Of a DNA stretch of 64,000 nucleotides, positions 3,731-59,278 are shown piece by piece. Origin of the DNA: Chiloscyllium plagiosum (Eukaryota). The position numbers and the translations under genes were made by a program. The stretch covers positions 58,711,325 to 58,775,324 of the forward strand of contig NC_057718.1 in NCBI RefSeq assembly GCF_004010195.1. Reading direction: 5' to 3'. Within the stretch, counting starts at the first letter, position 1, and every line of letters starts with the position of its first letter. The notes under the pieces are model-generated. The model was not told the DNA's origin. It did no database searches and saw only the letters and a program-made list of their open reading frames with translations.

Positions 3731-3734
3731 TGTC

Positions 3735-13787: not shown

Positions 13788-13823
13788 AATCGACGTTTCG
13801 GTCAAAAGCCCTTCATCAGGAAT
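13788..13823 (-). ncRNA. Minimal hammerhead ribozyme motif with one stem II mismatch
   Basis: AUUC-CUGAUGA-A-GGGC-UUUU-GACC-GAAAC-GUC-GAUU. Confidence 0.7.
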
Positions 13824-14014
13824 AAAGGCAGTGAGCCTGAAGCGTGGAGAGATAAGCTAGAGGAGAGTGGGGGTGGGGAGAAAGTAGCATAGAGTACAAT
13901 GGGTGAGTGGGAGAGGGGATGAAGGTGATCGGTCAGGGAGGAGAGGGTGGAGTGGATAGGTGGAAAAGGAGATAGGCAGGTAGGACAAGTCCGGACAAGT
14001 CATGGGGACAGTGC

Positions 14015-14116
14015 NNNNNNNNNNNNNNNNNNNNNNNNNNNNNNNNNNNNNNNNNNNNNNNNNNNNNNNNNNNNNNNNNNNNNNNNNNNNNNNNNNNNNN
14101 NNNNNNNNNNNNNNNN
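14015..14116. other. Assembly gap (102 N)
   Basis: Run of N. Confidence 1.
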
Positions 14117-15228
14117 GCGCTCTGCTAGGAGGCGCCCAGTCTCCCCAATGTAGAGGAGACCGTATCGGGAGCAACGGATACAATAAATGATATTAGTGGA
14201 TATGCAAGTAAAACTTTGATGGATGTGGAAGGCTCCTTTAGGGCCTTGGATAGAGGTGAGGGAGGAGGTATGGGCGCAGGTTTTACAGTTCCTGCGGTGG
14301 CAGGGGAAAGTGCCAGGATGGGAGGGTGGGTGGACTTGACCAGGTAGTCACGGAGGGAACGGTCTTTGCAGAAGGCGGAAAGGGGTGGGGAGGGAAATAT
14401 ATCCCTGGTGGTGAGGTCTATTGGAGGTGGCGGAAATGTCGGTGGATGATTTGATTTATGCAAAGGTTGGTAGGGTGGAAGGTGAGCACCAGGGGCGTTC
14501 TGTCCTTGTTACGGTTGGAGGGGTGGGCTCTGACGGCGGAGGTGTGGGATGTGGACGAGATGCGTTTGAGAGCATCTTTAACCACGTGGGAAGGGAAATT
14601 GCGGTCTCGAAAGAAGGAGGCCATCTGGTGTGTTCTGTGGTGGAACTGGTCCTCCTGGGAGCAGATACGGTGGAGGCGGAGGAATTGAGAATATGGGATG
14701 GCATTTTTGCAAGAGGTAGGGTGGGAAGAGGTGTAATCCAGGTAGCTGTGGGAGTCGGTGGGTTTGTAAAAAATGTCAGTGTCAAGTCGGTCGTCATTAA
14801 TGGAGATGGAGAGGTCCAGGAAGTGTGTTCGTGTGTTGAGTCTAAAGTTCCATTATTGACATTGATTACTGTTCTTATGACAGGGATGTATGAACAGGCC
14901 AGTTAACCTCTTCATTCTGGTCCATGATTCTATTAGGTCATTGCAGGTCTGTATAAAGTCTATTTATTCTTTTCCTTTCTTATTCTTACCTATAAATCTC
15001 AACATTGAAATTTTAATTAATTGATTAGTCACAGTCTCCTTCATCCATCAGCACTCTCATGTTTCTCAGATATTCCATCAGTCTGTCTTGGTGATTGACC
15101 TGGGAGGAAACAGATATGCAGTCAGGGCCTGGCTGTTGATCACAGTGTGGAAACATATCACAGGCATGGGAGAGATACTGCAGCAGCCATGCCAGCATTA
15201 GTTGTGGTGGCATGGTTGGGGCAATGAT

Positions 15229-15458
15229 GCCCTTCAATGTTCCTCAGCACAGGTCTCCAGGACAGCTGTCTGCGGGGACCTTCACAACATGGTGAAGAGA
15301 GGACTGGAGCTGATGCAGGAGAAAGTTGAAGAGCTGCTGGTATCCTCAGAGGAGAGGTAGGTGAGTGGGAGGAGATTGATATACTGTTGGTGCTTGCAGT
15401 CACACACCTAGCTACCATAGAAGCCTGTGACAGTCTTATCCAGGCAAACCTCATCTGA
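15229..15458 (+). pseudogene. Harbinger (HARBI1-like) transposase C-terminal relic
   Basis: ALQCSSAQVSRTAVCGDLHNMVKRG, acidic tail, EACDSLIQ; resembles the LQYSPxRVSRIxxxCCxLHN motif. Confidence 0.6.
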
Positions 15459-15975
15459 AAAGTGCTTTAGCAGTAGTTAACACTTTTTATCTTGATCCCT
15501 GTGTTACCCAACCTGAATTGGGACCAGGCAGTGGTTTGGAGGATGATGTTGATGGTTGATAAGCTCCTAATGAGTGAAGGGGGTGATCTGGGCCCAGACC
15601 TTGCAAAGAGATGTCAGATCCCAGAGGTGGCAGTTCAGAATCTGGTTATTAGCCTGCAAAGCAGGTTATGTGTGAAGTAAGTATGGGGTCAGTTTTAATC
15701 ACTACTTAAGCATTAGACTATGCATTTAATAGTCTAACTTTTTAAAATAACTATTTACTTAACTTCATTGAAATCTTCTGAATTCTGTGACTTAAATGGA
15801 GAATTTTGGAAGGATCATAGCATAGGGGAACTTCTCAGCAGAATATTCATTTTATCGGGCAATTCCTTCAGAGTGTGCTAGAACGGGACTCTACAGGATT
15901 CCCATGTCCAATTTCAGTCTACCCTGGAATAACAACTGTCTGCCTGTCGGAAAATACAGGCCAGTATCACCAGTG

Positions 15976-16343
15976 TGGAGAAAGTGAGGACTGCAGATGC
16001 TGGAGATCAGAGTCAAGAGTATGGTGCTGGAAAAGCACAGCAGATCAGGCAGCATCTGAGGAGCAGGAAAATCAACATTTCAGCAGAAGCCCTTCTTCAG
16101 GAATGAAGCTTGTGAGCCAAGTGTGGGGGAGATATAAATGGGAAGGTGGGGTGGGGCAGGGGGGAAGGTAGCTGCGATTGCAATAGGTAGATGGAGGTGG
16201 GGTAATGGTGATAGGTCAGAGAGGAGAGTGGAGCGGATAGGTGGGAGGGAAGATGGACAGGTGGGACAGGTCATGAGGGCAGTGCTGAGTTGGAGGGTTG
16301 GTTCTGGGATAAGGTGGGAGGAGGGGAAATGAGGAAACTGGTG
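15976..16343 (-). mobile_element. Penelope-like 3' terminal region with decayed hammerhead
   Basis: Same terminus (GGAGAAAGTGAGGACTGCAGATGCTGGAGATC) as 57112; G-rich part homologous to 13860-14010. Confidence 0.85.
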
Positions 16344-18704: not shown

Positions 18705-19175
18705 ATTTCTGTCAGAAAAGATTTACAATAATGTTGGAGAGTTTGAGTTAGAGAAAGAGATTGAGTGGTCTGGAGTTCTTTTCCCCTGGACTATTGGAGG
18801 CTGAGGGGTGACCTTATACAGGTTTGTAAAATCATGAAGGGCATGGATTGGGTGAATAGCCAAGGTCTTTTTCCCAGTGTAGGGGAGTCCAAACTAGAGG
18901 GCATAGGTAGGGAAAGATTTAAAAGCGACCTAAGGGGCAACTTTTTCATGCAAAGGATGGTGCATGTATGGAATGAGCTGCCAGAGAAAGTGGTGCAGAC
19001 TGGTATAAATACAACATTTAAAAGGCATCTGGATGTGCACATAAATAGGAAGGGTTTAGAGGGATATGGTCCAAATGCTGACAAATGGGACTAGATTAGT
19101 TTTAAGATATCTGTTCGGTGAGAATGAGTTGGATTGAAAGGTCTCTGTCCTTCTTTGTAATTCTATGACTCCATA
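18705..19175 (+). mobile_element. CR1 LINE 3' fragment
   Basis: RLRGDLIQVCKIMKG..FFMQRMVHVWNELP; CTATGACT tail. Confidence 0.9.
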
Positions 19176-22100
19176 AGTGAGCCATCTGTAATTATAAATG
19201 TCATTTGCAGTTCCACTTTAATTTTGATGTAGCATTTTACTGAGTGGATCATCTCATTCTCTTTTACTCTCAGGTTCATTTCCTTGGCTCTGTCCTCTTC
19301 TCATTCCAATCTTACCTAACCTTATGCAATTAATTTATTTGATACAATGGCTCTTTCTGTCATGTTTGAATAGACTTTATCATATTCAACAGACAGAAGC
19401 TGATACCTCTGACCTCTCACTTGCAGATATGGAGGATTTAAGTACAAAATAAAAATATAAAGGACATTCCAACAAGCCCCAGGTTTTCTGGCATACCTCT
19501 GTTCAAACATCAGTGGGAGTAGGCAGAACTACTGGAAATTTGACAAGGTAATGCTAAGTCTTGACCCAATGTCAAATCTTAATGAGAAGCTTGTATTTAC
19601 ATAGCCCGCTGTTGACATTTAGATTTGCATTGCTATAAGGCCACGTGAGAATGATCAGCATGAACTCTGAATATTGAAGTTCCTATCCCATGGTTCTTCA
19701 TTCAGAAGTGAATACAGTTGACATAGAATGTGACATTTTGGGTGTCCGTGATGAGTAATGGACCATAGAGTTACTGGGGACAAGGGAAGAGAGCTGGGGC
19801 AACAGAGCAGATTTTGGATATACAGAAGTCCAAAAGCATGCATCCATTCTAAATATCACTCAATAAAAATTGGGATGTACTTTTGGAAAATATTCCATTG
19901 TAATGATCTTTGAAATATTGTCTATTTTAATGGTTTGAGTACATTGGATTTACTTAATGACTCATCAGTTGAATCTCTGCCTTTAGTGTTATGGAAAACT
20001 GGTTCTGTAAATAAAAGCTTAATAAAAGGTTATTGAGCTGAAACATGAACTTTGTTTCTCTCTCTCTACAGATGCTGCTTGACCTGCTCTGCATTTTCAG
20101 TCTTTATTTTGTCCTATATATTGTATTAACTATTTGAATTGATGCTGAACCTGCTGGTTAGTTGATCCCAGCCAAAGCAAAGTGAAGGATAGTTTTCAAC
20201 CACTAATGACGAGCAATGATTCACCTTCTCAATATATCTTTATTATGTTTACATGTAAGGTGATGATAGAATGAAGCTTAAATATATCTCAAATAGCAAC
20301 TTGCGTAAACTAATAGAGTTACCACTGATCACTGACCTGAAAAGCATTAGGCACCCCCTACAGGAGAGGAGGGCAGACAATCATTCCAAAGAAGTACCTT
20401 GTCAAAGGGTGAAAGACTGGGAAGCATTTGAAGGATCTGCCTTGTAAAATTATATACCCAGTTTTATATAAAGATATTTGCTCCGTGTAGGGAAATTTCT
20501 TTTATGTTCTGTGAATTAATTGCTAAAATTCTGTGTGCTCTCCTTATGATGTCACAATAGTATTTCCAGGAGCTGTTGGTGAACAGCCCTCATTCTCCCC
20601 ATCTGGAAGTGAGAATAACTGTCCTCCCACAGTTTTAATGAATTTTCCCCTGAGAACGAATTAGCTGCAAGATAGTCTCTGCCCCCTCTGCTCATCTGTC
20701 TTATTCACTGACACAAATACCTCCTCTCACATTGCTAGTTGTTAAATGAATGTAGACTTCAGGCTGTATGCTTTGGTTGGAGGATTTTCATTGATTAACG
20801 TATTCAAGAAATACATAATTTCTGGAAGTTGGGTTATATAGTAAGGTAAAGATAGACATTAATAATTCACTGTGTACTTGACCTTAATGAATTGTCATTA
20901 GTCTCTTTATCTGAATTTCCTACAGAAGTAAAAGTTTATAAAAAGCACCAGAGTAAAGCTGAAGCATGTGGTCAATTTTCTCTGGTCAGGGATATGTAAC
21001 AATAATCCAAACCACAGGAAGAAGGAACAAATTCAAGGCTGTCACAGTGGGTTGGCAGTGCTTATATTGAATTGCTCTGATTAGATATTTAATTAATCAT
21101 TAAGATGTACCTGAAGAATAGTTGTGATAATTTAGCTTTGATAGAGACTAAAATTTATATTGGCAAACTGAAATTTATTTTTCAGGAAATCAATAGCTAG
21201 CAGTCAGCAAGCTTGAAACTCTGACAGGCTGTCATTGGCAGGTTATTATCAAGTCCCAAGTTTTCAATTTTTGAAACTGCAGATTCTAAATAAAAGCCAA
21301 AGCAAAGCAAAATTGCTTGTTTAGACACTTGTAACAAACCATCTAAAAATAGGAGCGCTACTGGATTTTGAAAAGCAATTAATTTACTTCTGCCCTTGGA
21401 GAACTGAGATTTAATTGTCTAATGAGCTATAGTTGTCTCGCCAATAAAAAAATTAGCTTGTACCCCATTCATACACCCATGAACTACTTATTCATTGTTA
21501 ATATTTCCCTTGAAATGAAGTGTTTCCCAGCAACCAGTCAATTGTAATTATAAAAGGCAGAATTACTTTTTGGAGCAGGATACATAATTCATTTTTAAAA
21601 ATCTGATGTAAAACATGATGTGTACAATGTATTGTTGGGTTCACTAGATGTTCTTCAAATCATATCTCTCCTTCCACTTCCTCATAGCAGCCAACATCCT
21701 CTCTTTCTCCCCTTGCCCCAACAACCTGGATTAGTTTGTCTTTATTATTGCTTATTTAGCAAGCCCTCGTTAAGCTCCAACTAAACCTGGAAAGTTTCAG
21801 AGAAAGAATAGAGAAGAGCTGCAAAGCCCATCCCTGGCAGCAAATAATTGAGTTATTAGGAACATTGCGCTTTTCATCCTTGGAATTGGATGATTAAAAA
21901 ACGGCAACATAAAGTAGTTGGAATCAATCTTTCAAAACCTAAAGAGACAGACAAAGAAATACATCTGGAAAAGAACTGCTGGCATCAACCTCACAGCTTT
22001 TGTGTCTTAGTGTTCAGAAGTGCCACATAAATGTTACAAGTAGAGCACATCAGCAATAGATCACCTTCTAGCAAGATAGCCAAGCTTTATAGGTCTTACT

Positions 22101-22876: not shown

Positions 22877-25310
22877 TAAGACATAAGACATAGGAGCAGA
22901 AATTAGGCCATTCAGCCCATTGAATCTACTCCACCGTTCAATCATGGCTGATAAGTTTCTCAACCCCATTGTCCCACTTTCTCCCCATAACCCTTGATCC
23001 CCTTGACAGTCAAGAATGTATGTACTTAAGTCTTAACTATACTCAATGACCTGGCCTCCACAGCCTTTTGTGGCAATGAAATCCGTAGATTCACTACTCT
23101 CTGGCTAAAGAAGTTTCTCCTTATCTCAACTCAAAAGAGTTTTCCTCTAAGGGCATGCCCTCGGATCCTACTCTCTCCTACCAATGGTAACACCTTCTCA
23201 ACACCTACTCTGTCCAGGCCATTCACTATTCTATATGTTTCAATTAGATCCTTCCTCATCCTTCTAAACTCCATCGCTTACAGACACAAAGTCCTTAATC
23301 ATTCCGATGTTAAGCTTTTCATTCCTGGGACCATTCTTGTGAACCTCTTCTGAGCACGTTCCTGGGCCAATACATCCTTCCTGTGAAATGGGGCCCAAAA
23401 CTGCGCACAATACTCCAAATGTGGTCTGACCTGAGCCTTATAGAGATGCAGAAACATATCCCTGCTTTTATATTCAAGTCCTGTCAAAATAAATGCTATC
23501 ATTGCATTTGCCTTCCTAACTCAACCTGCAAGTTTACCTTGAAAGAATCCTGGACTAGAACTCCCAAGTCTCTGTACTTCAGACTTCTGAATTTTGTCCC
23601 ATTTAAAAAGTAGTCATTCGCTCTATTCTTCCTACCAAAGTGCATGACCTCACATTTCTCACATTGTACTCTTCTTTGCCCACTCTCCTAACTTGTCCTC
23701 CCCATCTCCCCAATACTACCTGTTCCTCTACCTATCTTTGTATCTTCTGCAAACATAGCCAGAATACCCTCAGTTCCTTCATCTAGATGATTAATGTATA
23801 AAGTAAAAAGTTGTGGTCCCAACACTGAGCCTTGCAGAATGCCACTTGACACCAACTGCCATCCTGAGAAGGACCCTTTTACCCTCACTCTCTGCTTTCT
23901 GCCAGACAGTCAAGCTTCTATCTATGCTAGCACCTTGCCTCAAACACCATGGCACTTATCTTACTCAGTAGCCTCCTGTGCAGCACCTTGTCGAAGGCCT
24001 TCTTGAAGTCCAGGTGGATAACACCTCCCTTGATGAAACCATGCTGACTCTGCCCTATTTTACGATACACTTCCAAGTATTCAGAAATCTCATCTTTCAC
24101 AATGGATTCCAGGATCTTACCCACGACTGATGTTAGGCTAACCAGTCTGTAATTTTCCATCTTTTGCCTTACTCCCTTTTTAAGCAGAGCTGTCATGTTA
24201 GTGACTTTCCAGTCCTATGGGACCCTCCCTGATTCTGGTGATTCCAGCAAGATCACCCGTATCGCCTTTGCCAGCTATCTCTCTTAAAACTCTATGGTGT
24301 AGTCCATTTGGTCCAGGTGATTTATCACCTTCAGGCCATTCAGTTTTTCTAGCACATTCTCCTTGGTGATGACCACTATACTCAGCTCTGCCACCTCACT
24401 CTCTTGAATCTTTGGGACATTCCTCATGTCTTCCACTGACAAGACTTACGTGAAGTAATTATTTAGTTACTCAACCATTTCCTTCTTCCCTGCTATTATC
24501 TCTCCATCATTCCAAAATCCACATTTGCCTCTCTTTTGCCCTTTATATATCTAAATAAACTCTTAAAATCTTCCTTTATATTACTGGCTAACTTACCCAC
24601 ATAGTTAATCTTCTCCCTCTGTATTTCTTGTTTTGTTGTCCTCTGTAGTCTTTGTAAGCTTCCCAACCCTCTAGTTTCCCATGGCCCTTCCCCAAATTAT
24701 TTACTTTCCCTTTTACTTTAATCCATCCCTGACTTCCCTACTCAGCCATGGTTGCCTCATCCTCCCTGTACCATGCTCTTTTTCGTCAGGATGAATCTCT
24801 GCTGTGTCTCCTGAATTACTCTCAGAAACTCCTGCCATTGCTGTTCCACTGTCTTACCTGCTAGGCTCCTCTCCCAGTCAATTCTGCTAAGTTCTTCCCT
24901 CATGTCTCTGTACTTGCCTTTATTCAACAGTAATACCATTATCTTTGATTCTATCTTCTCCCTCTCAAAAAGCTCCCTGATCAAGTCTGTCTCATTGCAC
25001 AACTCTAAGTCCAGCATTGCCTGTTCCTAGTGGGCTCCACTACAAGCTACTTCAAAAACTCCATCTCGTAGATCTTCCACAAATTCCTTTTCTTGCAATC
25101 CGTAATCAACCTGATTTTCCTAGACTACCTGCATATTGAAATCCCACATAATCACTATAAGTTTGCCTTTCCTATACATCTTTTCTATACATCTAGTGCC
25201 CCAGCTCCTGACCACTATTTGGAGACCTGTACATAACTCCAACTAAGGTCTTTTTTAACCTTTGCAGTTCTTCAATTCTACCCACATAGATTCTACACTG
25301 TCTGACCCTA
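22877..25310 (-). mobile_element. CR1 LINE, about 2.4 kb with internal deletions (endonuclease end, RT, 3'UTR)
   Basis: ENYRLVSLTSVVGKILE, LDFKKAFDKV, QGSVLGPQLF, HLEYCAQFWAP; TAAGACA tail at 22877. Confidence 0.93.
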
Positions 25311-27930: not shown

Positions 27931-28021
27931 AACAGGAGGTTCAACACCTCTAACTTACACCTCTCATTAAAAAAAAAGGACAAAATACACCTCTTGAAGC
28001 TTTAGTATCATCATACTAAAT

Positions 28022-32284: not shown

Positions 32285-32438
32285 TGAGAGAGGGAAAACG
32301 AGTATACACTTTGAGTCTAGTAACTCTTCTTCAGAACTTGTTCTCCACATATGCTGCCAGATCTGCTGAGTTTCTCTGGCAGTTTCTGTTTGTGTTTGAT
32401 TCAGATCTGTAACATCTGCAGTTCTTTGTTTTATTTCA
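32285..32438. mobile_element. Penelope-like terminal unit, partial inverted dimer (family of 1309-1522)
   Basis: Minus-strand CTGAAGAAGAGTTACTAGACTCAAAG (GAAA lost), followed by a plus-strand terminus. Confidence 0.6.
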
Positions 32439-35044: not shown

Positions 35045-36200
35045 CTCCTTAACTATGCTTAGTGGATGATGGTCAGGCTTTATGGAATCAGGAGATACAT
35101 TGCTTGCTGCAGCGTTCCCAAACTCTGACTCACTTTAATTGCCACAGTATTAATGTGGCTAGACTTTCTAAGCATCCAAAGAGAGCAGAGTTGATATTTC
35201 AGGCATAAGCCCTTCATCATCAATATTCCTGATGAAGGGCATACCAAAATGTCGGCTCTCCTGCTTTTCAGATGCTGCCTGACATGCTGTGCTTTTCAAG
35301 GAAGGACTTTTTTCGACTCTGACTCTCCAGTATTTGCTGTCCTCACGTTTTCCTAGTTAGCTTTCTACTCAATGATAAACCAGAATTGTTAATACTGGAG
35401 TATTTAGCGATGGCAATATCATGAAATATCAAAGAAGAATGGTTAGATTCTCTCCTCGTGGAGATGATCATCGTTTGGTATGAGTTAACCATTGATAACG
35501 TCAAGCCTGAATGGTTTCAATTTTCAGCTGGTCTAGTGACATCTGTAAAGGGAGAAACAGATTTAATGCTTTCAACTGAGCATGATTCTTCCTCCTTCCT
35601 TGTTTCCCACCAATCTACCATGAGGTTATAACAACCTGACGAGTTGTCCTATTGAATATACTGCATGGTGCCAGGCTCGCTTACCTTTTGGTATAATCCC
35701 AGTGGTGTCATGCTGAAGCCTCTATCTGACCTTTAATTGGCCACTTAAGGGCCTCTTTTGGTGGCAAGGCAGGAAAGTCAACCATGGGCTGTCCCACCCA
35801 GAACTTAATTCTGCTGGAGGTGGGAGGTGTTTGGGTACACCACCACAGCCTTTGCTAAACAGCCTTTCCCTGGTTCAAAGCTAGCCAGCTCCAAGAACTG
35901 CCCATTATCTCTGCTTCTCTCTCCACAAATGCTGCCAAACCTGCTGAGTATTTCCAGCACTTGCTACTTTAAATGTTAGATTTCCAGCATCTGCAGTGCT
36001 TTGCATTTACCTGAATGTTATCCAGGTCATGATGCAGATGCTCACAGACTGCTTCATTATCTGGAGAATAGTACTGAACATTATGCAATCAATAGCCATT
36101 TCTGAACTTTTAATGGTAGTAGGGTCATTAATGAAGTCGCAGAAAATGATGGGTCGAGGTCTCTGCCCTAATGAACTGATGTCCTTCGGGTATTGGCCAT
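35045..36200 (-). mobile_element. Decayed RT-region pieces of an L2/CR1-group LINE with nested inserts
   Basis: Remnants at about 35045-35490 and 36010-36200 resemble post-RT LINE sequence; interrupted by Penelope termini at 35172 and about 35905. Confidence 0.5.
35172..35354. mobile_element. Penelope terminal inverted dimer centred on the hammerhead
   Basis: GCCCTTCATCA..ATTCCTGATGAAGGGC mirror centre; the plus-strand core shows CpG decay (CCAAAATGTC for CCGAAACGTC). Confidence 0.8.
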
Positions 36201-39261: not shown

Positions 39262-39323
39262 AAAGGAAGTATTGGCATGTCTTCATTAATTGAGGCTCAG
39301 ACAGTTAAATATATTAGCACAGG

Positions 39324-39451
39324 TAAAAACAATGACTGCAGATGCTGGAAACCAGATTCTGGATTAGTGGTGCTGGAAAAGCACAGCAATTCAGGCAGCA
39401 TCCGAGGAGCAGTAAAATTGACGTTTCCGGCAAAAGCCCTTCATCTGGAAT
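39324..39451 (-). mobile_element. Solo Penelope terminal unit ending at a mutated hammerhead
   Basis: Same family as 13730; CACAGG at 39318-39323 and 39454-39459 may be a TSD. Confidence 0.8.
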
Positions 39452-40435
39452 ACCACAGGCAGTTCATGCTGAAACTGAGACTGAAGGATTTCCGGAGTGT
39501 TATTATAAGAAACAGAGTTCTGATGAAAAACTTAAACTGACAGGAGTCTGTAATTGCTGAGCCAATCTTTTCAATTGTTTGTGAACCAGGACATAATTTT
39601 TGCAATTGTTTATATCTCAAGTACAGAGAAGATTCTAAGATAATTGTCAGTGCCACTGCAAATTTCATGCCCACTTCCATAATTATATGTAACTGATCCT
39701 GATGCCATATCTCCTTATCCAAATATCAGTTTCAAATCCTCTGGTGCTTAATGTTCGTCTTCTGTTGTGAACTCTAGGTAGCATCTGCCACACGGGTAAA
39801 GACAGTTGCAAAGTATTCATTTAACACCTCAGGTATGACTAATGGCTCTTTGTGCAAATGCAAATGGACATAATTCATTTTTTGACCACTTGTTTACTAA
39901 TGATGTGCTTAAGGACTTTGAGGACTTCTTTTATGTTAGCTGCCAGCCTTTTCTCATAATCCCTCTTTGCTTCTTCTATTTGCTTTATCATCTTGTTTCT
40001 GAATCTTTTGCATTCAGCATGGTCCTCAACTGTATTTGTTACTTGACAGAAGTCTTTTTTTAACTTAATTTCTATTTACTTTGTCATCTAGGGAACTTTG
40101 GAATTGTTTGTGCAGACTGTCCCTTTTGAGGAAATATACCTTGATTTTGCACAAATCATCTACTTTTCGAAGGTAGCCCATTGTTCAGCTAATCTTTCTC
40201 CTGTCAACTTTTGAATCCAGTCTATCTGGCCCAGATTCTTTCTTGCCCCCTTAAATCCAGCTCTCCTCCAATTGATTGCCAATCATATGGATTGATCGAT
40301 ATCACTTTCTACCATCATCCATAGCCTTACCATGCAATGATCACAGTCCTATAAATCTTCTCCCACTGACACTTGATTCACCTCATTCCCAGAAACCACA
40401 CCTAGAAGTGCCTCCATTTTTGTTGGACTGGACAC

Positions 40436-42860: not shown

Positions 42861-43985
42861 GTGCTGCATTTGGTCCATAATCTTGCCATTTTGAAGATGT
42901 ATCCATTACCTCCAGGGCTCCAGAAGCTAACTCAAGAGCAGAAGGAAGAAAGGGAAGAAGAGAAACAAGGGAAGCATTCTGAACCCTATTTACCTGTTTG
43001 GGCTATGAGAAAGTGGGATTATCAGGCTCCAATTTCAGTGAACCAACTTCACCATCCAAATGTAGACACACTGATGCCCATTGGTACATCCATCAAAGAC
43101 GCCTTATCACAAAAATTATATGTGTGTCTCGAGGATTGCTACTGGCTAGTTGCTTGGTAGTTTATTAAGCTGCATGATAATTTGGTGGGAACGCAAAGCA
43201 ATGTGAAAATACTTAATTGATCTTTCGGCAATGCTGCCAAGTCCTTAGGGTCAGTTCCTGAGCATTGGTCTCACTTACAATCTGTTTGCACTCCCTCAGC
43301 TTCAAACGCTGCCTTGCTTCTTGAATGCATAAAACTGCTACCTCTATTGAGACATCACTGAATCTTGGAGCCCTCTCCTTGGTTTGGTGGTTTATCATTT
43401 GTTTTCCCCCAATCTTCAACCTTGCATCATATTTTCAGCCTTCAATTCTCTAGTGCAACTTCCCTTTAAGAGGGACCCCCTACATTTAGGAGCTGGAGGT
43501 ATACATTCTTAGATATTCAACCACTCAGTAGCATGAATTGTGCTCACCATCACCTTATCTCGACGAGGACTAGTAAGGGAAGTGTAAGTGTCCATTTCTA
43601 TCTATCTTTTATTATTGAGATTTTCCTATAATAAATGTGACTGTGCACTGTTTTGGTGTGGGCAGATGTAAAATATATCTACATGGCATATTCCAACATT
43701 TCCTATGACATTCATACAAAGGCTGTGGTGTAATATGTAGTCTTGTAAAAAGAATTGTATTTTCTTAAGTAAATCTACCATGAGTAAGGGATGGCAGCTT
43801 AAATATAAGCACACTCTGTCATTCATTTCCAGGAGAAGCAAAGCATATCTTTATGGCAACCTCAATAGCCTCAGAGCATTTGGGACTTGTTTTCAAATAT
43901 ACTGTAGCTTGCAGTGACCTGTAGATGGCATTCCACTGTATTGGCAATGCATTACTCTTCAATTGTGTTACTTCTGAGAAAGAGC

Positions 43986-44078
43986 TGAAAATGTGTTGCT
44001 GGAACAGCGCAGCAGGTCAGGCAGCATCCAGGGAACAGGAGAATCGACGTTTCGGGCATAAGCCCTTCTTCAGGAATT
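43986..44078 (-). mobile_element. 93-bp solo Penelope terminal unit with 15-bp TSD
   Basis: CTTCTGAGAAAGAGC at 43971-43985 and 44079-44093. Confidence 0.9.
44042..44077 (-). ncRNA. Minimal hammerhead ribozyme motif
   Basis: AUUC-CUGAAGA-A-GGGC-UUAU-GCCC-GAAAC-GUC-GAUU. Confidence 0.8.
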
Positions 44079-44809
44079 CTTCTGAGAAAGAGCCAGACGA
44101 GTACAAGTTAAGGGAAAATTCCTTATTTTGTTGACCATTTTTCCCTTTTTACTGACATTGAAAAAACAGAAGATAGAAATAAATTATCCTGTATTAAACA
44201 ATCTAAATGAGATGACTAGTTGTAAGTTATTGGTTTATTTATTATTTATCAAAGAAAAGAATGGGGAAAGAAAAAACTGAAACTCTTGGGAAATTAGGTA
44301 TTATAAGGCTGACCGCTGCTACGAAATTAATTGTGCTGCCAGAAGAATTTGGACATTGTTGCTTTTAAATTGTTTTATGAGTTGTTCAGTCAGGGCACAC
44401 TGTAGTAATTGGGCTTATGTTTCACTTCATACCAGTGGTTAATGATAGAAAGTTACAGAATAGATTCATGACTGCTCTGGGTTTTCTTTTTGTACAATAC
44501 AGGAAGACATTCAGACCATGAGGGCAGCAATATTCGGAATGGACCTAGTGGTTAATCATGAGGGAAGCAATTAATCTTAGCCTGCAAATTGCTGCTTGCC
44601 TCCCACATGCAGGTACAGTTACAAAAAGGTATCTGAGGAAGCAGTTAGCAAATCTATCGCCGTGTTTTGAATTGAGAATCACAGGATAATAGGATATGAC
44701 CGCAATAAGAAATTGTTAAAAGGAAAGCCTGACACTGCAGTTATTTTTCATCATTTTGGTTAGATTGTGGTTAAAAGAAGATGCAAAATCAGATACTCAA
44801 TTATCACAA

Positions 44810-45130
44810 TGAAAAATGAAAATGTTGAAAACATTCAGCAGGTCAGGCAGCATCTGTGAAGCGAGTAACAGAGTTAATGTTTCAGGTCAGCGACTTTTCG
44901 GCAGAACTGGGAAAAATTGAAGGTGCATGGGGATTTGAACAAGGGTTTGGTGGCTCAAGGGCAAGAAGATCTGTGAGAAGGTGAAAGCCAGGAGATTGAA
45001 TGTCAGATGTGTTCATCTTCTAGAGCCAAATGAAATGTTGCCGAGGTAAGAAAGAAAGAAACAAAAGCTGGGCTGAGGAAAAGTAGATTGCTGTCTAAAA
45101 GCAAAAAAGGAGAAAAACCTGAATCCTGAA
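44810..45130 (-). mobile_element. Old Penelope-like 3' terminal relic
   Basis: CAGCAGGTCAGGCAGCATCTGTG..ACAGAGTTAATGTTTCAGG terminus motif. Confidence 0.55.
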
Positions 45131-48737: not shown

Positions 48738-48944
48738 GGAGAAAGTGAGAACTGGAGATAGAGTTGAGAGTGTGGTGCTGGAAAAGCACAGTAGGTCAGG
48801 TAGCATCCAAGGAGCAGAAGAATCGACATTTCGGGCATAAGCCCTTCATTCCTGATGAAGGGTTTATGCCTGAAACGTCGATTCTCCTGCTCCTGGGATG
48901 CTGCCCGACCTGCTGCGCTTTTCCAGCAACACACTCTCAACTCT
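48738..48944. mobile_element. Penelope terminal inverted dimer with arms of about 90 bp
   Basis: 48760-48848 is the reverse complement of about 48855-48944; ATAATC is duplicated at the flanks. Confidence 0.9.
48848..48883 (+). ncRNA. Minimal hammerhead ribozyme motif with G-U wobbles in stem II
   Basis: AUUC-CUGAUGA-A-GGGU-UUAU-GCCU-GAAAC-GUC-GAUU. Confidence 0.75.
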
Positions 48945-51830: not shown

Positions 51831-54373
51831 CTTCTGAACATGTCAGCTCAAAATATCTCCTAGCTGTTTATTAAAAAGTGTAACATTATTAGCAGCAGCC
51901 ACACAAAGGTTAATTGAATTACATGAAGGGCCTTTTAAAAGCTTATGTCATTCACCTTAATGCTCTTCAGACTACAGGTCTGTCCAAGTTATTATTCTTG
52001 GCAGGCTTTGAGTGAACTGGAGATTTAAAGATTCCTCATAAGTGCACCAACAGTAATCTGCTGACCATCAGCAACAACTTGTTGAACACTTTCCAACCTA
52101 CCATCTCAGGATCTGTCCTCTTCAATATCTGTTCCATTTCATCTGTCCTCCAATAACTTACTTCTGTCCAAAGATCAACTTTGATAAACATTCACCTGAT
52201 ATTGCACAGTGATCTTCTGCTGCACTCTGCACATGATGATTTCAAAGTGGATTTGAAATTGTTTGGTTTATACTAACTCCCTATCAACCAATTATCACCC
52301 AAAGAAACCCATAGTGTTTGTTCAAGTTGAACCAACAATGTCGAGGTGGCTACATTATAATGTGGAATGTTGCTTCCAATGAAGACTCAAGATCCTCATG
52401 TTTGCCACTTCTGGGCTTGGGCAAAGTTATACTCTTTTCTACAAATAAATATATCCACCACAGAGTAGTGAAACAGTGACATGAGGTTTTCTTTTGAAGA
52501 CGAAATTGCTGACAGATTAACTGGGTGTCTACATCTACATCTGAACGATGTCATTGCTGCTTCAGACTGCCCAAACAGACCCTGGGACTAATATATCATA
52601 CCTTATTGAGTAATAATTGATGGTAGTTTAAGGTATGGCTGTCCAAAGTCATCCTATTTCAACATCTCTCATATTCCCTGATAGCATATTCATTCTTGAA
52701 GAGTCAGTGAAACCAAAACAATAACATTATATCCGAATATGCTTTAACAGAAATAAATAAATTGACATGTCTCTGAAATGTATTCAAAATTTTCTTTTCT
52801 GTTGAGCTTCAGGTATGGTGACCTTTACTGGAGGCTGATCTAGTTTCAGAATGCTAGCTAGAATTATTTTGTTCGTGTTGTGAAGTAGATCTTGTTCTAA
52901 TTTCAATAGGATTATCTGGTATTTCTGCTTGTGGTATTATTTCAGTTTCATATCCATTTCATCACACTCACATGCTGTTTGTATACAGATTTGATACAAT
53001 CTTAGATCTAGGCATATTTGACAATTTCTGCTGATCTCTATGGACCATCAGTTGGACATTCTACACAATCTTTCTGTATAATATTCAACTTGTTTTTTTT
53101 TTATCTATAGGCTTCTTGTAGGTACCTTTCACCATTCCCTTTTATCATTTCATGTGTCATGTACCTCTGGAAGCATTAATGAATAATAACTTGAGAGGCT
53201 TATCCACACTGTGGATATTAACCTAAAATTTGCTGATTTAGCAAAAATAAAATAAAATTAGAATGAAATGAGAAGGAAAAAACATATGAAACTAGGTGAT
53301 AACCTTATGATTAGGAAGAGGTCATGGGTTTTTAAAGTGTTTGTGTTAGGCTGAAGAGATGTGCATTTTTGTTTACATCAAATCTGTAACTGAGCAGTAA
53401 TGGTCCGAACTGTTACTGTAATTCTGGAAAAGCTGAAGTTTTGTTTAAAACAGACACAGTGAATCAGATGTGATGCTGTGATTATTTATCAGCTGAATTT
53501 ATGATTGTCATGGAGTTGAGTTGTTGTTGGACAATAACAAAATGATGAACAGTGACCACAAGCTAAAGTTTTAATGTCAAAGTTTAAGGCAAGAGCTAAG
53601 CACCTTTTCAAGGAGACAGAAGCAAGGCTTAATGAGTTAATTGATCAAACTGACATGGAAAACATGACAGATTTGTGATATCTTCCAGTAGTCAAGCTGA
53701 TCATTTTCTGGAGACTGGTTTGTGCCAAAGAGTTTGAATGCAGAGCTGCATTGTATAAAAAGAGTATAAAGTAACTTTCCTCACAGTAAAAGTTTAGTTA
53801 GCCTCAGGGAATAGTATAACGATCAATAATCAGAATTGAAGGGAGAGAGTGGATTTATCACCTTTTTTAGTTTTTCCTTTGGACAAGTCTGTATTAAAGA
53901 TTTCATGAAAGAGAATGTAAATATTATATGGATAAGAGGCTTGCAGTTTTTCTGTAACATACTTTGCTTTAATAAAGAACATTGGATATATTCCATTGTT
54001 AGAATTGTCTTGGGTTATTGATATCCAGAGGAAATCTGACCAAATAGGGGATTAAAAGCCGAAAGAGCAATTCCATATTCATTCTATGGTGCGATGAAGT
54101 ATGCACATTAGGATTAGGGATGCATACTTGATTCAAATAGTGTCAGGTAACCTTTTGGCTGATGATCTGCCTGGCAGAGTAAGGTGATCTTCTCCCAGTG
54201 TAGGCATGTATTAATGGGTGATGCTTCTCATGAACCACAACACTATCTTGACAACACCATGAATGGTGACTGTTGTCTTGTCATTTTAAGAGTTTTGTCT
54301 CTTTCAGAAGCTCAATAGACAGATAAACCATGTTCTGGATGTAAGTTTGCTCGCTGAGCTGAAAGGTTCATTT

Positions 54374-54413
54374 CTAGATGTTTCGTCACCCTACTAGGTA
54401 ACATCTTCAGTGG
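54374..54413 (-). ncRNA. Hammerhead motif, left arm
   Basis: CCA-CUGAAGA-U-GUUACC-UAGUAG-GGUGAC-GAAAC-AUC-UAG. Confidence 0.65.
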
Positions 54414-54534
54414 GCCTCAGGTGAAGCCCTGCAGATAATTCCTGCTTTCTATTAATATGTTTGGGAAGCAGGAATTATCAGCAGTGCTTTGATGTTTGGG
54501 AAGCAGGAATTATCAGCAGTGCTTTGCCTGAGGC

Positions 54535-54574
54535 CAACTGAAGATGTTACCTAGTAGGGTGACGAAATGTCTGA
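54535..54574 (+). ncRNA. Hammerhead motif, right arm
   Basis: CAA-CUGAAGA-U-GUUACC-UAGUAG-GGUGAC-GAAAU-GUC-UGA. Confidence 0.65.
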
Positions 54575-54735
54575 AAATGAACCTTCCAGCTCAGCGAGCA
54601 AAAATGTCTGAAAATGAACCTTCCAGCTCAGCGAGCAAACCAACATCCAGAACCTTAACCTGAGCTACAAATCTCAAAACTCACTAAGATGATCCAGGTA
54701 CCTGCATGTAATCACATAGCCAGAGCCCAAAGTCA

Positions 54736-57030
54736 TGTTGCATTGCAACACCCTAGACAAAGATTACTAGAGATGTCTAGAGATTACTCTGCATTATAAA
54801 TATTTGTTTAGCTATATATAAATGCAGAGATTTTCAAGTGAGTAGAATCCAGGTACCTCATATGTATGGCATTTAGATAGAACAGGGACATTACTACATG
54901 GTGTACATCAGTGATCTTTCTCTTTAAAGAAATAAAACAGAACAAATAAAACAGCCTTACAAGTTTGATGACCAAAGGAAGAAACAACAAACAAGATACA
55001 AGAGCAATCCTTAGGTACCCGCAGTCCAGAAAACAGGAGAAAATAATGTTCCTTTACAAACTGAGAATACCTTTGAGCTGGCCATGTCCATATGGGCAGC
55101 CAGCTGAATCAAAAGTCTGTCAAAAGCTATTCTGAATTTGAAGATCCATTTGGAATCAGTCCTGTACTAAACTAAGAAAGAGCATGTCTAAACTAACACA
55201 TGATAAAATATTTAAAATGAAAATAAAAAGCAAAAGCAAAGATCACAGCTGAAACATTGCTGAAGGCATATTCTGTGACTCATTTGTAGCAAGATTCCTG
55301 TAGGTCCTTGATGACTGAAAAAGGCAGAAAATCAGCAGAAGGATAGGAACTAAATCTCCCAGCATTAATTAGAATATCATGGAACGCGAATGAGTTCAAA
55401 CTTAAAAGTAAGTCTAAAAATAATGCATCTATGCTTCATAAACCAAGCAGCTGAAGAACTGGTTCAACAAACTGTCAAAATAATATTAGCACTTGGTATT
55501 GACAGACTGCACAGAGTTGATATATTGGGCTTATCTTAAGAGTATCAAAAATTTTCTGCAAAAATAAGCAAAGTACTAAAAAATCAGCTTCATGGAAGAG
55601 TCCATGTTAAAATTCATTGCTTTGAATTGATGTCCTACCAACAACAGCCATAGGAATCAATAGATCAATTTGTCAGTAGATGCTTTCATAAGCGCCACAA
55701 ATGTGATTTCTTAGAAAAAGAACTGTTGGAACAAATAATGGAGTTGGTGATTGACTCAACACATGTCAAAGCATTCCAAAAAAGCCTCCTGGTAATAAAA
55801 CAAATGAACAGCATTGGCAGAAAATACAAAAATATTGCAGTTAGACAACAGCACCTGCAAGCACTAAGTGCAGCCAACAGTATAGATACTGTAGTCAGTA
55901 CACAAAAAGCAAGAAACTGTGTCCTATGCACAATCAAATGCACAAAGTTGCCCTCCATTCGTAGATCAATACAAAATGTGCAATACAAAAGGACATTGAT
56001 TTACTGCATAAGAAATCTAGCTCCAAAGATGTTGCCAAAGGCTACACAAGGCACAACAAACAGAAGACAGATGCAGCAAAGTGGTAATTGCAGCAAGGAG
56101 TGCACCAAAGATCTGGGTAAACTTCAGCCAATATACAAGGCCATAGTAAAAAGTGTGGTGCTGGAAAAGCACAGCCAGTGAGCGAGTGCTGAGTTGGAGG
56201 GTTGGATCTAGGATAAAGTCGGGGGAGGGGAGATGAAGAAACTGGTGAAATTGGTCTCCAACCTCATAGTCCACGAACCCCACATTGCCTGGTTCTACCT
56301 CTTCCCCAAAATTCACAAACCTGACTGTCCCATTCGACCAATTGCCTCAGCTTGCTCCTGTCTCACTGAAAGTCGATTTCAGCACTTTCCTCATCTCTCC
56401 TCCCCTGACCTTATCCCAGATCCAACCTTCCAGGAAACGCTGACTCTCCTACCTCTCAGATGCTGCCTGACTGGCTGTGCTTTTCCAGCACCACACTTTT
56501 TGACTCTGATTTTCCAACATCTGCAGTCGTCACTTTCTCCCAAAGGTCATAGCAAGGCTGACCCAAGTCAGGGCTATGTCCATACAGACAGTCAGCTGAA
56601 TACAAACTGAGATATAGGCTATTTAAAATGTGGAGGGATGAAAGGAGTCAGCCGTGTGCTAAACTAAGAGAGGACATGTATAAGTTGAAACACGATAATA
56701 TATAAAAAGTGGAAGGAAAAAGCAACTGCAGAGAATAGAGCAACCTCTAACCATGGGACAAATAGACTTTTCATATTGTGAAGTACTGTAATATATTATG
56801 TGGACTAAGTCAAGCATGTACAAGCTTTTGCCTCAATCATTGTCATTGCCCAAGGAAAAATGACAAAGCCAAACTCAAAATCAACATTGGCATGAGAGCT
56901 AGTTCAAATTTCCTACATTTGGACTGATTTTTGGTTTGAACCCAGTGGTACAACTGACAACAGCCAACTTAATCGAATTCAATGGGTCACCCGCTTCTTG
57001 CAATGGCACATTAATAATGCAATGCTGTTC
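54736..57030 (+). mobile_element. Gypsy LTR-retrotransposon relic (LTR, gag, protease region)
   Basis: TGTTG..TACA then TGGTG (PBS-like) at 54899; gag-like KIILALGIDRLHRV and EQIMELVIDSTHVKAFQKSLL. Confidence 0.65.
56147..56542. mobile_element. Penelope mosaic: inverted terminal pieces flanking an RT fragment
   Basis: SNLIVHEPHIAWFYLFPKIHKPDCPIRPIASACSC at about 56252-56369; TSD AAGG(C/T)CATAG at 56137-56146 and 56543-56552. Confidence 0.85.
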
Positions 57031-57111
57031 AGCGTGCAAACCACAAATATTTTACCTGGTAGACATGAGTGCACTGGCAATGACAGAACTACATTGTGTA
57101 TGAAGAAGGTA

Positions 57112-57266
57112 GGAGAAAGTGAGGTCTGCAGATGCTGGAGATCAAAGTTGAAACTTTATTGCTGGAACAGCACAGCAGGTCAGGCAGCATCCAGGGAACA
57201 GGAGATTCGACGTTTCGGGCACAGGCCCTTCTTCAGGAATGAGCCTGAAGGCAGGAATGGCTCATT
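57112..57266 (-). mobile_element. Solo Penelope terminal unit with 13-bp TSD and fold-back filler
   Basis: TATGAAGAAGGTA at 57099-57111 and 57267-57279. Confidence 0.9.
57205..57240 (-). ncRNA. Best-preserved minimal type I hammerhead ribozyme motif
   Basis: AUUC-CUGAAGA-A-GGGC-CUGU-GCCC-GAAAC-GUC-GAAU: perfect stems I and II, palindromic ACGU in place of stem III. Confidence 0.85.
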
Positions 57267-57947
57267 TATGAAGAAGGTACCAAATGGATCTATACACAAT
57301 GTGCAAAGTGGAAGGATATTTGCTCCTGCACGAATATCCAGATTTGTATAGACATTATCCCCACCCTTCATCTCTGGACATGTAATCTGAATTATGGCAA
57401 AGACTTCTGTTGCTATCATGGTGCCAATACATTCTTTAATGTTCACTGTGCTTAATATCTGCTCAGTTTCTGTGTCTATGCTTTGGCTATGCTCATCATA
57501 TGTCCATGTGGCTTAGTTAGACATTTCATAGATCTGGCTTTGGCCCTTTTTTGAATGGCTCTTTACTGTCTTGAACATATTGCTTGTGTGACTTTTGGTT
57601 TCCAATGTCACTTTCTAAGTTCTAATGTTCCACGTGTCTTGTATACAACAGCAAGAGCTGGGTAATTTCTGGTACATATATGAGGATGAACCTCTTTCAT
57701 TGATTACTTAGCTTGGCTCATTGGCTACTGCACCAATGGTGCACAAGTTGCACATACATATTGTTCATCCTCAAATATGGCTTGTAGTTGTGCTGCCAAG
57801 GTATAACCTTTGAGGTGATCTAATATATAATTTTTGAATACTTCCATTGGGGTACATGCTATCATGATCTCAGTCATTTTGTTTGCTGGTACTACTTTCA
57901 TTAAGTTGTGATGTGGAAATGCTGTTGTTGGACTGGGGTGGGCAAAT

Positions 57948-58112
57948 TCAGAAGTCACACATCAGGTTATAGTGCAATAGGTTTATTTGAAATCGGGAGC
58001 TTTTGGAGTGCTGCTTCTGGAGTGACTTCGCCTGATGAATGCACAGTGGTCCGATGGCTTATGATTTCAAATAAACCTGTTGGACTATAACCTGATGTCA
58101 TGTGACTTCTGA
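57948..58112. mobile_element. Penelope terminal inverted dimer, third family, with decayed hammerhead
   Basis: CAGGTTATAGT..AGGTTTATTTGAAATC mirrored by GATTTCAAATAAACCT..ACTATAACCTG; CTGATGA at 58032-58038. Confidence 0.75.
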
Positions 58113-59096
58113 CTTCATGAAGTTATAATCATGCTTCTTGTCTCTGTACCTATCTACCTTCATCTACCTATGAATTGATAAATATTCTCTTGATTGTTGC
58201 CTAGGGTAAACATGAGTTCCAGGTGGTGTATTTTAAAGCTGAGAGTCATGTATCTTTGAGTCTTGAACATATTTTTTCTCGCCTTTTGCCATCAGATGTA
58301 CCTGACAATGTTCTGTGGGGGTCTTCATTACCAAGAGCAATTTTAGTTCTAATGGCCTGTTTTTCTGATTCAGAAAAATTGAGGTTAAGAAAACAATGTA
58401 ATGCCTTATAAAACAATATATTCAAATTGGAAATTTGTTAATATCCAACTAAATGTTGGAAATTTTATTATCATTTTGCTGGTTTTTCATTATTTTTATT
58501 GCTATTTGAAAGTTTTTGACAGTTATTTGCATTTCTTCCAGTTTCAATGAAAAGGTTTTGTTTTACAGTTTTCTCATTGCTAGGACCTGTTACTAGATGG
58601 ATTATTTTTGCCCACCCAGTATTTAGCTTCAGTCTCCCTGTCAGTGAGTTCTGCTTAAAATGAGATATCACTCTCGACTCTGGCATTTAGGTTGGATGCC
58701 TGCTTCAACTTTGCTGCAACTAGACTTCACTAATTAAACTGCCCCAAATTTGAACAATCTCACTAGGATGAACTATAGGTTGATTCCACACAAGACCAGA
58801 GTATGTAAAGAATTCCTACAGAGATGCAGATTCGTTGAAATAACCATGATGTTTTTTGAGCATTGTTTTTCTTTCACCCTAGTTCTTTTGTTCAGTTAGA
58901 CATAGAGTAGTTGAGGCTTGTTTATTTTACAATCAATCTTCAAAAGCATGCTGCCACCATGTTGCATTCTTCTCTTCAGATGTAAACATACCAATCACTC
59001 ACAAGGATTGATGAAGCAACAATGTGGGTTCTTCATGTGAAAATCAAACTAACCTTACTGGGTCGTCATGTATAGTGCATCTAATCTATATCACTG

Positions 59097-59278
59097 TCGA
59101 AAGTGTGGTGCTGGAAAAGCACAGTAGGTCAAGCAGCATCCGAGGAGCAGGAGAATCGATCTTTTGGGCGTAAGTCCTTCATCTCCAGCTCCTTAGATGC
59201 TGTGATGACCTGCTGTGCTTTTCCAGCACCACCCTCTTGACTCAGATCTCCAGCATCTGCAGTCCTTAGTTTCTCCTG
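59097..59278. mobile_element. Penelope terminal inverted dimer inside the Gypsy LTR
   Basis: GTGGTGCTGGAAAAGCACAG mirrored by CTGTGCTTTTCCAGCACCAC; TATCACTG at 59089-59096 and 59284-59291. Confidence 0.85.

What the first reader, a model, noticed from the sequence alone, without database searches (positions are those of the whole stretch)
13788..59278. Dispersed family of minimal hammerhead ribozymes carried by about four Penelope-like terminal repeats
Seen: the pattern stem I, CUGAnGA, stem II, GAAAC-GUC, stem I' is intact or nearly so at 57205-57240(-), 44042-44077(-), 48848-48883(+) and 13788-13823(-). A different stem II occurs at 54374-54413(-) and 54535-54574(+). Decayed versions lie near 1425, 16080, 32310, 35225, 39420, 58030 and 59160. 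Core bases stay fixed while stem II and its loop vary (GGGC/GCCC with UUAU, CUGU or UUUU loops; GUUACC/GGUGAC). Stem III is replaced by the palindrome ACGU. Established: Penelope-like elements carry minimal hammerheads that lack helix III and are proposed to cleave as dimers. Inference: this density suggests a very high-copy and probably unannotated ribozyme population in this genome, with some copies possibly still active.
Basis: partly seen in the sequence, partly recalled or inferred. Interest (0 to 1): 0.75.

Follow-up and report, generated by a model that had tools for sequence, protein, structure and literature searches.

The report
Penelope retroelement stubs with minimal hammerheads
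The motifs are real minimal hammerhead ribozymes of an already described kind, sitting in short, mostly decayed end-pieces of Penelope-like jumping genes in a shark-like genome; what stands out is their density and the tendency of copies to start just before the ribozyme.

Summary
Confirmed. The pattern CUGAnGA-stem II-GAAACGUC occurs 4 times (0.01 expected). The window holds four repeat families with this motif. Family A has 13 arms in 9 insertions. One of them lies downstream of a broken RT + Cys-linker + GIY-YIG ORF, about 90% identical to Chiloscyllium proteins: a Neptune-type Penelope-like element (PLE). Minimal hammerheads in PLE repeats, solo copies and inverted pairs are published.

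Inherited differences spare the core (0/95 vs 47/525 in the flank), while private mutations do not (2/95 vs 21/525). Selection therefore acted on the source elements, and the dispersed copies look like neutral relics. No tandem partner is nearby, and inverted copies fold into hairpins that bury the motif. "Still active" is unsupported.

In metagenome contigs, 19 of 43 arms of related families end 13-46 nt before the core. This suggests uncleaved templates whose 5' end lies at the ribozyme (inferred). Earlier scan notes on this genome say much the same. New member of a known kind.

The parts
13730..14825 (-). 5'-truncated Neptune-type PLE insertion (family A): broken RT C-terminus, Cys linker and GIY-YIG, then 3' region and hammerhead; no tail; 9-nt candidate TSD; assembly gap at 14015-14116
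14117..14837 (-). Broken PLE ORF in three pieces: RT C-terminal part, linker with C-x4-C-x2-C, start of GIY-YIG
   Evidence: tblastn 85-93% identity to P0001/P0002; GIY-YIG E 0.041 here, 2.5e-4 in P0002
13788..13823 (-). Minimal hammerhead: core intact, stem II 3 of 4, stem I 3 of 4, ACGU kept; predicted cut between 13792 and 13791
15977..16343 (-). Family A arm with about 240 nt of upstream sequence, decayed hammerhead (about 16070-16104) and tail
35171..35355 (.). Family A head-to-head pair; both arms start at stem I; both hammerheads decayed; tail on the + arm only
39320..39452 (-). Family A stub starting at stem I; U4 changed; tail present; imperfect TSD by eye
43980..44077 (-). Family A stub starting at stem I; intact core at 44042-44077; no tail; 15-nt TSD ending 5 nt before C3
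48730..48945 (.). Family A head-to-head pair with junction at stem I; + arm has an intact core (48848-48883); tail on the - arm only; folds into one long hairpin on either strand
54332..54653 (.). Family B head-to-head pair; hammerheads at 54374-54413(-) and 54535-54574(+) with 6-7 bp stem II; palindrome lost in both
56142..56540 (.). Family A inverted element with an RT fragment (56254-56535); deletions remove most or all of the hammerhead in both arms
57110..57270 (-). Family A stub with the best-formed hammerhead (57205-57240; stems I and II 4 of 4), tail, 13-nt TSD and a small fold-back at the 5' end
57945..58115 (.). Family C head-to-head pair; decayed hammerhead-like core near 58030; PLE link inferred from architecture only
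59090..59278 (.). Family A head-to-head pair; - arm starts at about +7, + arm at about +36 (just past the cut site); tail on the + arm; candidate TSD
1307..1517 (.). Family D head-to-head pair, decayed hammerheads, tail on the - arm
32290..32435 (.). Family D head-to-head pair; - arm begins at stem I, decayed
2490..4173 (.). Old decayed PLE with inverted ends; ORF relic 2814-3311(+) followed by a family-D-like end at 3661-3725(+)
20036..20100 (+). Family D arm, decayed
35903..36003 (+). Family D arm lacking the core, with tail
44806..44910 (-). Family D arm, decayed core

Best explanation
These are 3'-end fragments of endonuclease-bearing Penelope-like retrotransposons (Neptune type for family A) of a bamboo-shark-like genome. 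Each source element carries a minimal type I hammerhead in its terminal repeat. SHOWN HERE: motif, same-strand position behind the RT/GIY-YIG ORF, TSDs, two 3' ends about 30-35 nt apart (the PLE tail), tail on only one arm of inverted pairs, and core conservation among source lineages but not detectably in individual copies. FROM THE LITERATURE: the PLE protein nicks both DNA strands and starts reverse transcription at two internal sites; such hammerheads cut poorly, as dimers or with protein help. INFERRED (about 50%): the source RNA begins at or just before stem I. Reverse transcription started at the sites about 95-130 nt downstream then runs off the 5' end of an uncleaved RNA and leaves ribozyme-headed stubs, singly or head to head. 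INFERRED (about 30%): in the source element, protein-assisted cleavage after GUC removes the capped first 32 nt and limits the element's own expression. The dispersed stubs are mostly inert relics.
For: Motif enrichment. ORF identity and linker. Tail on one arm only in 4 of 4 inverted family A insertions, as described in PMC8557442 and explained by two start sites in PMC11167929. Shared differences: core 0/95 vs flank 47/525, p=5e-4; singletons 2/95 vs 21/525, p=0.56. Stem I, which was not in the search pattern, pairs in related metagenome copies: 11 of 48 distinct types are perfect 3-bp Watson-Crick stems vs 2.0 in shuffles. 5' ends: 8 of 13 family A arms at -13..+8; 19 of 43 metagenome arms at 13-46 nt, 3 at 47-100, 21 beyond, p=0.0016. 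Strand-switch joints at 13823/13824 in other copies, and a 2.6- to 7-fold depth drop across 13823.
Against: No cleavage, start site or cap could be tested. The depth drop and loose ends at 13823 are confounded: their consensus starts with shared letters in all three runs, so other subfamilies with a different upstream sequence contribute. The singleton test is small and has little power. In D. virilis the start site is 46 nt plus a 75-nt intron upstream of helix I, not at it. Family B arms share about 35-45 nt upstream of stem I. Neptune versus Nematis was not settled by a tree. Families B and C have no linked ORF here.
Confidence: 0.8

Rival explanations
1. The 5' boundary at stem I is made at the DNA or cDNA level, not by the RNA's start: an endonuclease cut at ATT, microhomology or fold-back between the upstream CTTCAT word and the core ATGAAG, or RT release after unwinding the ribozyme.
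For: The anole PLE enzyme prefers 5'-ATT-3', and stem I of family A starts with ATT. The junction at 48848 overlaps by a short self-complementary word, and 57240-57270 shows a small fold-back.
Against: Metagenome families also cluster just upstream of the core (13-46 nt), and by eye several of those boundaries do not begin with ATT. Single-arm copies with TSDs show the boundary without any fold-back.
Confidence: 0.3
2. The stubs are a separate non-autonomous SINE- or MITE-like family that is transcribed and copied as a 100-200 nt unit by PLE protein.
For: Recurrent 5' and 3' ends, TSDs and very high copy number. A preprint derives tandem retrozymes from pLTRs.
Against: Each inverted pair has its own junction, and stubs match the ends of long copies (39357-39452 is 90% identical to 13729-13824). 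Lengths grade into long copies, and there are no tandem arrays.
Confidence: 0.15
3. One reading: a population of still-active ribozymes that cut host transcripts.
For: 4 of 10 family A arms keep an intact core and ACGU. The isolated 36-mer at 57205 folds into stems I and II as its lowest-energy form. The family appears in polyA RNA on both strands (1,988 of 12,955,460 records).
Against: There is no close same-strand partner, and the ACGU duplex is only -1.7 kcal/mol. With its native flank the 57205 copy misfolds stem I, and 48848 is buried in a -158 kcal/mol hairpin. There is no copy-level conservation. Published single motifs did not cut and dimers cut weakly.
Confidence: 0.1
4. The conserved words are kept as a promoter or protein-binding signal and are no longer catalytic in this lineage.
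For: The 60 nt downstream are also shared between families A and D. In the anole PLE, ribozyme mutants still insert in vitro.
Against: Variation falls on N7 and loop II, the positions a hammerhead tolerates. Stem I covaries across families. The anole motif does cleave, with C3-G8 rescue.
Confidence: 0.05

Closest known systems
Minimal hammerheads (min-HHR) in pLTRs of metazoan Penelope-like elements (Cervera and de la Pena 2014, PMC4209133)
   Same: Type I core without helix III, extra base after A9, G10.1-C11.1, short helix I, palindromic 15.2-16.2; mostly solo motifs from truncated PLEs; opposite-strand pairs; several families per genome.
   Different: Family A stem II is 4 bp (7-8 bp in Schistosoma). 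Sharks are not named in the parts read. The density here extrapolates far above the 4,000 (coelacanth) and 9,000 (Xenopus) reported. No 5' boundary at stem I is described in the parts read.
Insertion architecture of EN+ PLEs, Neptune clade (Craig et al. 2021, PMC8557442)
   Same: 5' truncation, adjacent inverted truncated copy, 30-40 bp tail at one end, Cys linker before a C-terminal GIY-YIG.
   Different: Here most insertions are reduced to the last 95-130 nt; no full-length or tandem copy is in the window.
PAc, Poseidon element of Anolis (Frangieh et al. 2024, PMC11167929)
   Same: Hammerhead at the pLTR; two RT start sites matching the tail; both strands cut and extended; uncleaved RNA is the main template.
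   Different: Other clade; in PAc the ribozyme overlaps the start codon. The ORF start relative to the ribozyme is not visible in this window.
Non-LTR retrozymes of animals (Li, Clavereau and Pollet 2026 preprint, 10.64898/2026.07.22.740005)
   Same: Type I hammerheads related to pLTRs; reported in one chondrichthyan.
   Different: Defined as tandem repeats with a hammerhead in each unit; these copies are solo or head to head.

Membership tests
PLE minimal type I hammerhead | Core C3 U4 G5 A6 N7 G8 A9 / G12 A13 A14 A15.1 / U16.1 H17 | tested here: met
   Intact in 4 of 10 family A arms covering the motif and in both family B arms
PLE minimal type I hammerhead | Extra nucleotide between A9 and G10.1; G10.1-C11.1 pair | tested here: met
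   Extra A in 10 of 10 family A arms, U in family B; pair kept except for CpG decay
PLE minimal type I hammerhead | Short helix I closing the motif | tested here: met
   3-4 of 4 pairs in the intact copies; covariation in related families
PLE minimal type I hammerhead | No helix III; palindromic 15.2-16.2 | tested here: met
   ACGU in 5 of 10 family A arms; decayed in both family B arms
PLE minimal type I hammerhead | Lies in the terminal repeat of a PLE, sense to the ORF | tested here: met
   Family A. Family D: weaker. Families B and C: no ORF in the window
PLE minimal type I hammerhead | Self-cleavage as a dimer or with protein | not testable with these tools
   No assay; cofolding cannot represent the double hammerhead
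Neptune clade PLE | RT followed by CX2-5CxxC linker and C-terminal GIY-YIG | tested here: met
   C-x4-C-x2-C then GIY-YIG at 14117-14329(-); the linker is shared with Nematis
Neptune clade PLE | RT phylogeny with Neptune references | not tested
   No tree built; Neptune is preferred because it and Poseidon are the clades reported in vertebrates
Non-LTR retrozyme | Tandem repeats with a hammerhead in each unit | tested here: not met
   Same-strand family A copies are 1.9 kb or more apart
MITE (DNA transposon derivative) | Fixed terminal inverted repeats around a fixed core | tested here: not met
   Arms are PLE ends, unequal (tail on one side), junctions differ, and solo arms exist
Rfam hammerhead families | Match to a curated covariance model | tested here: not met
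   No hammerhead family among 5 matches at E<=5

The most novel reading that the evidence does not exclude
Across animals, PLE transcripts start at or within a few tens of bases of their hammerhead. Short genomic stubs are then run-off copies that record the 5' end of uncleaved RNA. The ribozyme would act as a protein-triggered switch that cuts off the element's own cap and limits its expression, rather than a device for freeing the RNA from a precursor. Shark genomes would hold the largest such record, of order 10^5 intact-looking motifs.
Probability: 0.3. Interest if true: 0.6.

Novelty: new member of a known kind. Interest (0 to 1): 0.3.

Why it matters
The role of hammerheads in endonuclease-bearing PLEs is still open (PMC8557442). 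If stub 5' ends mark the RNA start, thousands of genomic copies give a free map of template ends and show that uncleaved RNA is what gets copied, which makes the cap-removal idea directly testable. In practice, these families are missed by Rfam, and their hairpins can be mistaken for MITEs or microRNA precursors. If the boundary has another cause, the finding is an ordinary, very abundant case of a 2014 discovery.

Tried and rejected
Rfam scan: no hammerhead hit; mir-1954 at 54416-54496 (33 bits, gathering 99) is the centre of the family B hairpin and was rejected.

No whole genome is held, so there is no genome-wide count.

No RNA holder was listed as on record. Run X22 laid 0 reads, which is no test. 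No place where many molecules begin or end was found in X21; a fragmented polyA library is not expected to show a ribozyme cut, so this counts neither way. No GT..AG joint appeared in the RNA reads, so a splice acceptor at stem I got no support. A>G was not in excess over G>A in the RNA run (26 vs 36 places; DNA runs 14 vs 14 and 12 vs 13), so no editing claim is made.

An extended stem I shared by subfamilies was not found. A downstream-promoter-element reading of AACGUC was dropped: the match to the recalled consensus is partial and the spacing differs between families. Cofolding gave no active-type dimer and cannot represent one.

Pfam on 54 further window ORFs found no host gene, so intron context is unknown. 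The TSD script missed the 39320 copy and several inverted copies; these were read by eye. The structure count used 24 hand-picked rows and is illustration only; one search is the unselected test. Lunse et al. could not be read.
Full report
OBSERVATION. The pattern CTGANGAN{10,25}GAAACGTC matches 4 times against 0.01 expected, and none of 100 shuffles reached 4. A second stem II (GUUACC/GGUGAC) occurs at 54374-54413(-) and 54535-54574(+); both have lost the ACGU palindrome. Rfam returns no hammerhead family at E<=5.

FAMILIES. Self-comparison and profile searches sort the motifs into four families. Family A has 13 arms in 9 insertions. Family B is one head-to-head pair (54332-54653), family C one decayed pair (57945-58115). 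Family D has about 9 decayed arms whose downstream part is homologous to A.

WHAT CARRIES THEM. At 14117-14837(-), on the same strand and upstream of the 13788 motif, lies an ORF broken into three pieces. It holds the C-terminal part of an RT, a C-x4-C-x2-C linker and the start of a GIY-YIG domain. Its best relatives (92 hits among 138 candidates) are Chiloscyllium punctatum proteins at 88-90%, then other sharks and rays at about 56-65%. P0001 has an RT domain and P0002 a GIY-YIG domain. RT, Cys linker and C-terminal GIY-YIG define Neptune and Nematis PLEs (PMC8557442, passages). I call it Neptune-type because Neptune and Poseidon are the clades reported in vertebrates (preprint passages); no tree was built. 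The host is therefore bamboo-shark-like. A second, older ORF relic at 2814-3311(+) is followed by a family-D-like end at 3661-3725(+). Families B and C have no ORF in the window.

INSERTION ANATOMY. Family A arms end at two places about 30-35 nt apart: 7 run to model position 128 and most others stop near 94-103. In 4 of 4 inverted family A insertions only one arm has the longer end. [quoted passage not shown] For the anole element it was traced to two internal RT start sites, with both DNA strands cut and extended (PMC11167929, parts 1-2 of 4). Exact TSDs flank the 44042 copy (15 nt), the 57205 copy (13 nt) and the long 13788 copy (9 nt, 1,006 nt upstream). Others are imperfect and were read by eye. 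Some of these are one insertion seen twice, and one hit is only 14 nt.

IS IT A HAMMERHEAD UNDER SELECTION? In 10 family A arms that cover the motif (3 of 13 lack it and were left out), non-CpG mismatches to the majority are 2/95 in the core, 11/50 in loop II plus N7 and 79/542 in the 3' flank. Splitting the differences matters. Those shared by two or more copies are 0/95 in the core and 47/525 in the flank (p=5e-4). Private ones are 2/95 and 21/525 (p=0.56) (one diverged arm end trimmed; small sample). CpG positions decay freely: 3/20 in the core, 7/20 in the palindrome, 4/10 in stem II. So the core was conserved in the source elements, and there is no sign that it is conserved after insertion.

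Reads and contigs laid on 13700-14014 agree. Of 40 best-supported variant rows shown (83 not shown), four fall in the 36-nt motif: N7, loop II and two stem II positions. None falls at an invariant core base, while 13 fall in the 59-nt flank. Stem I was not part of the metagenome pattern, yet 72 of 119 arms have at least 3 pairs. Of 48 distinct end types, 11 are perfect Watson-Crick triplets against 2.0 in shuffles (0 of 10,000). A count on 24 hand-picked rows shows compensatory changes at all four stem I pairs (illustration only).

ARE COPIES ACTIVE? Probably few, if any. Four of 10 arms keep core and palindrome. The 57205 36-mer folds into stems I and II (-7.1 kcal/mol), but with its own flank stem I is displaced. 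The 48848 copy sits in a hairpin of -158 kcal/mol, and the ACGU duplex is worth only -1.7. In a head-to-head pair only one motif is sense in any transcript, so it cannot form the double hammerhead in cis; same-strand copies are 1.9 kb or more apart. Published single motifs did not cut and dimers cut weakly (PMC4209133, parts 1-2 of 4; review PMC6765202, passages). The anole motif cut only with protein and was not needed for insertion. The family is present in polyA RNA of a related or identical species, 1,988 of 12,955,460 records, on both strands, as expected for read-through.

ABUNDANCE. Four intact-pattern motifs in 64 kb is 62 per Mb (95% interval 17-160). For a 3-4 Gb genome (size recalled) this gives roughly 5x10^4 to 6x10^5. 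It is an extrapolation from one window that was picked for this feature. 40,171 and 78,115 contigs of two DNA runs were laid on the 315-nt stretch, which is not a copy number. Cervera and de la Pena counted about 4,000 in coelacanth and 9,000 in Xenopus with another descriptor.

THE 5' BOUNDARY. Eight of 13 family A arms (6 of 9 insertions) begin between -13 and +8 relative to the first base of stem I, five of them at about +1. One begins at about +36, two are long and two have internal deletions. Arms of families C and D also begin at stem I by eye. In other copies, strand-switch joints fall at 13823 or 13824 (23 contigs of X2, 1 of X1, 8 reads of X21). Depth drops 2.6-, 3.8- and 6.9-fold across that point in X2, X1 and X21. 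That drop is confounded: the loose-end consensus starts with shared letters, so subfamilies with another upstream sequence add to it.

In four metagenome families, 43 arms were measured against hand-picked long copies. Of 47 arms, 4 were dropped: one at a contig end, two duplicates and one tandem duplication. Two further groups of 26 and 6 arms were not analysed. None of the 43 ended within 12 nt of C3, 19 ended at 13-46 nt, 3 at 47-100 and 21 beyond (rate 19/1688 vs 6/2072 nt, p=0.0016; arms of a pair are not independent). Nine of 26 candidate TSDs among 107 arms lie within 45 nt of C3.

The boundary is upstream of the cut site, so these templates were uncleaved. The simplest reading is that the RNA starts there and RT, starting 95-130 nt downstream, runs off its end. 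The shark boundary fits the recalled initiator consensus YYANWYY with the A at +1, which is weak support. D. virilis Penelope has an internal promoter with its start 46 nt before a 75-nt intron that ends at helix I (PMC2377424, passages): near, but not at, the ribozyme. A DNA-level cause (cut at ATT, microhomology) remains open. If the start is at stem I, cleavage would remove a capped 32-nt leader, so the ribozyme could serve as a protein-triggered brake on the element. This step is inference only.

WHAT IS KNOWN. Minimal hammerheads in PLE repeats, solo motifs from truncated copies and opposite-strand pairs are in PMC4209133. Dimer cleavage by many such variants is in Lunse et al. (not held; recalled, and cited). 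Seven literature searches (listings only, apart from the papers named above and passages of PMC6155905) turned up no description of these shark families or of a 5' boundary at the ribozyme. Most subscription papers and Repbase are not covered. Supplements I did not see (those of PMC4209133; those of the 2026 preprint, of which I read part 1 of 5 and passages) may list shark motifs. Earlier notes of this scan on the same genome, looked up after my reading was formed, report the same stubs, boundary and abundance (102 of 163 notes fit 'hammerhead'). They are unchecked AI notes and are not counted as support.

VERDICT. Real, correctly identified, and of a known kind. The claim of present activity is unsupported. 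The residual interest is the density and the 5' boundary, here also seen in related families from metagenome contigs. Interest 0.3.

Noticed in passing
window 6-953(+): Open 316-aa RT fragment (RVT_1 E 3.5e-13) of a non-LTR element, CR1-like by recall; related relics at 18712-19176, 23726-24214, 27617-27928, 38146-38627, 41493-41854 and 62105-62398.
   Followed up: partly
window 14015-14116: A run of 102 N interrupts the GIY-YIG end of the PLE.
   Followed up: no
window 39131-39261 and 40436-40566: 131-nt direct repeat, 98% identical, 1.3 kb apart, bracketing the 39320 stub.
   Followed up: no
window 54457-54526 and 54565-54638: Perfect 35-nt and 37-nt tandem duplications inside the family B element; the hairpin centre gives a spurious mir-1954 match.
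   Followed up: partly
window 56142-56540: Inverted PLE remnant in which both arms lost the hammerhead by separate internal deletions, around an N-terminal RT fragment.
   Followed up: partly
window 57240-57270: Small fold-back and duplication of the first bases of stem I at the 5' end of the best-formed copy, inside its TSD.
   Followed up: partly
window 48139-48378(+): Short frame resembling an LTR-element integrase core by eye (recalled likeness; no Pfam hit).
   Followed up: no
L026, L029 (metagenome loci): Head-to-head pairs with TSDs whose arms end about 108-111 and 53-59 nt after the cut site, so these families have a tail of about 52-55 nt on one arm.
   Followed up: partly
window 55080-55242 and 56572-56734: Old 160-nt direct repeat (70%) of unknown family around the 56142 element.
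   Followed up: no
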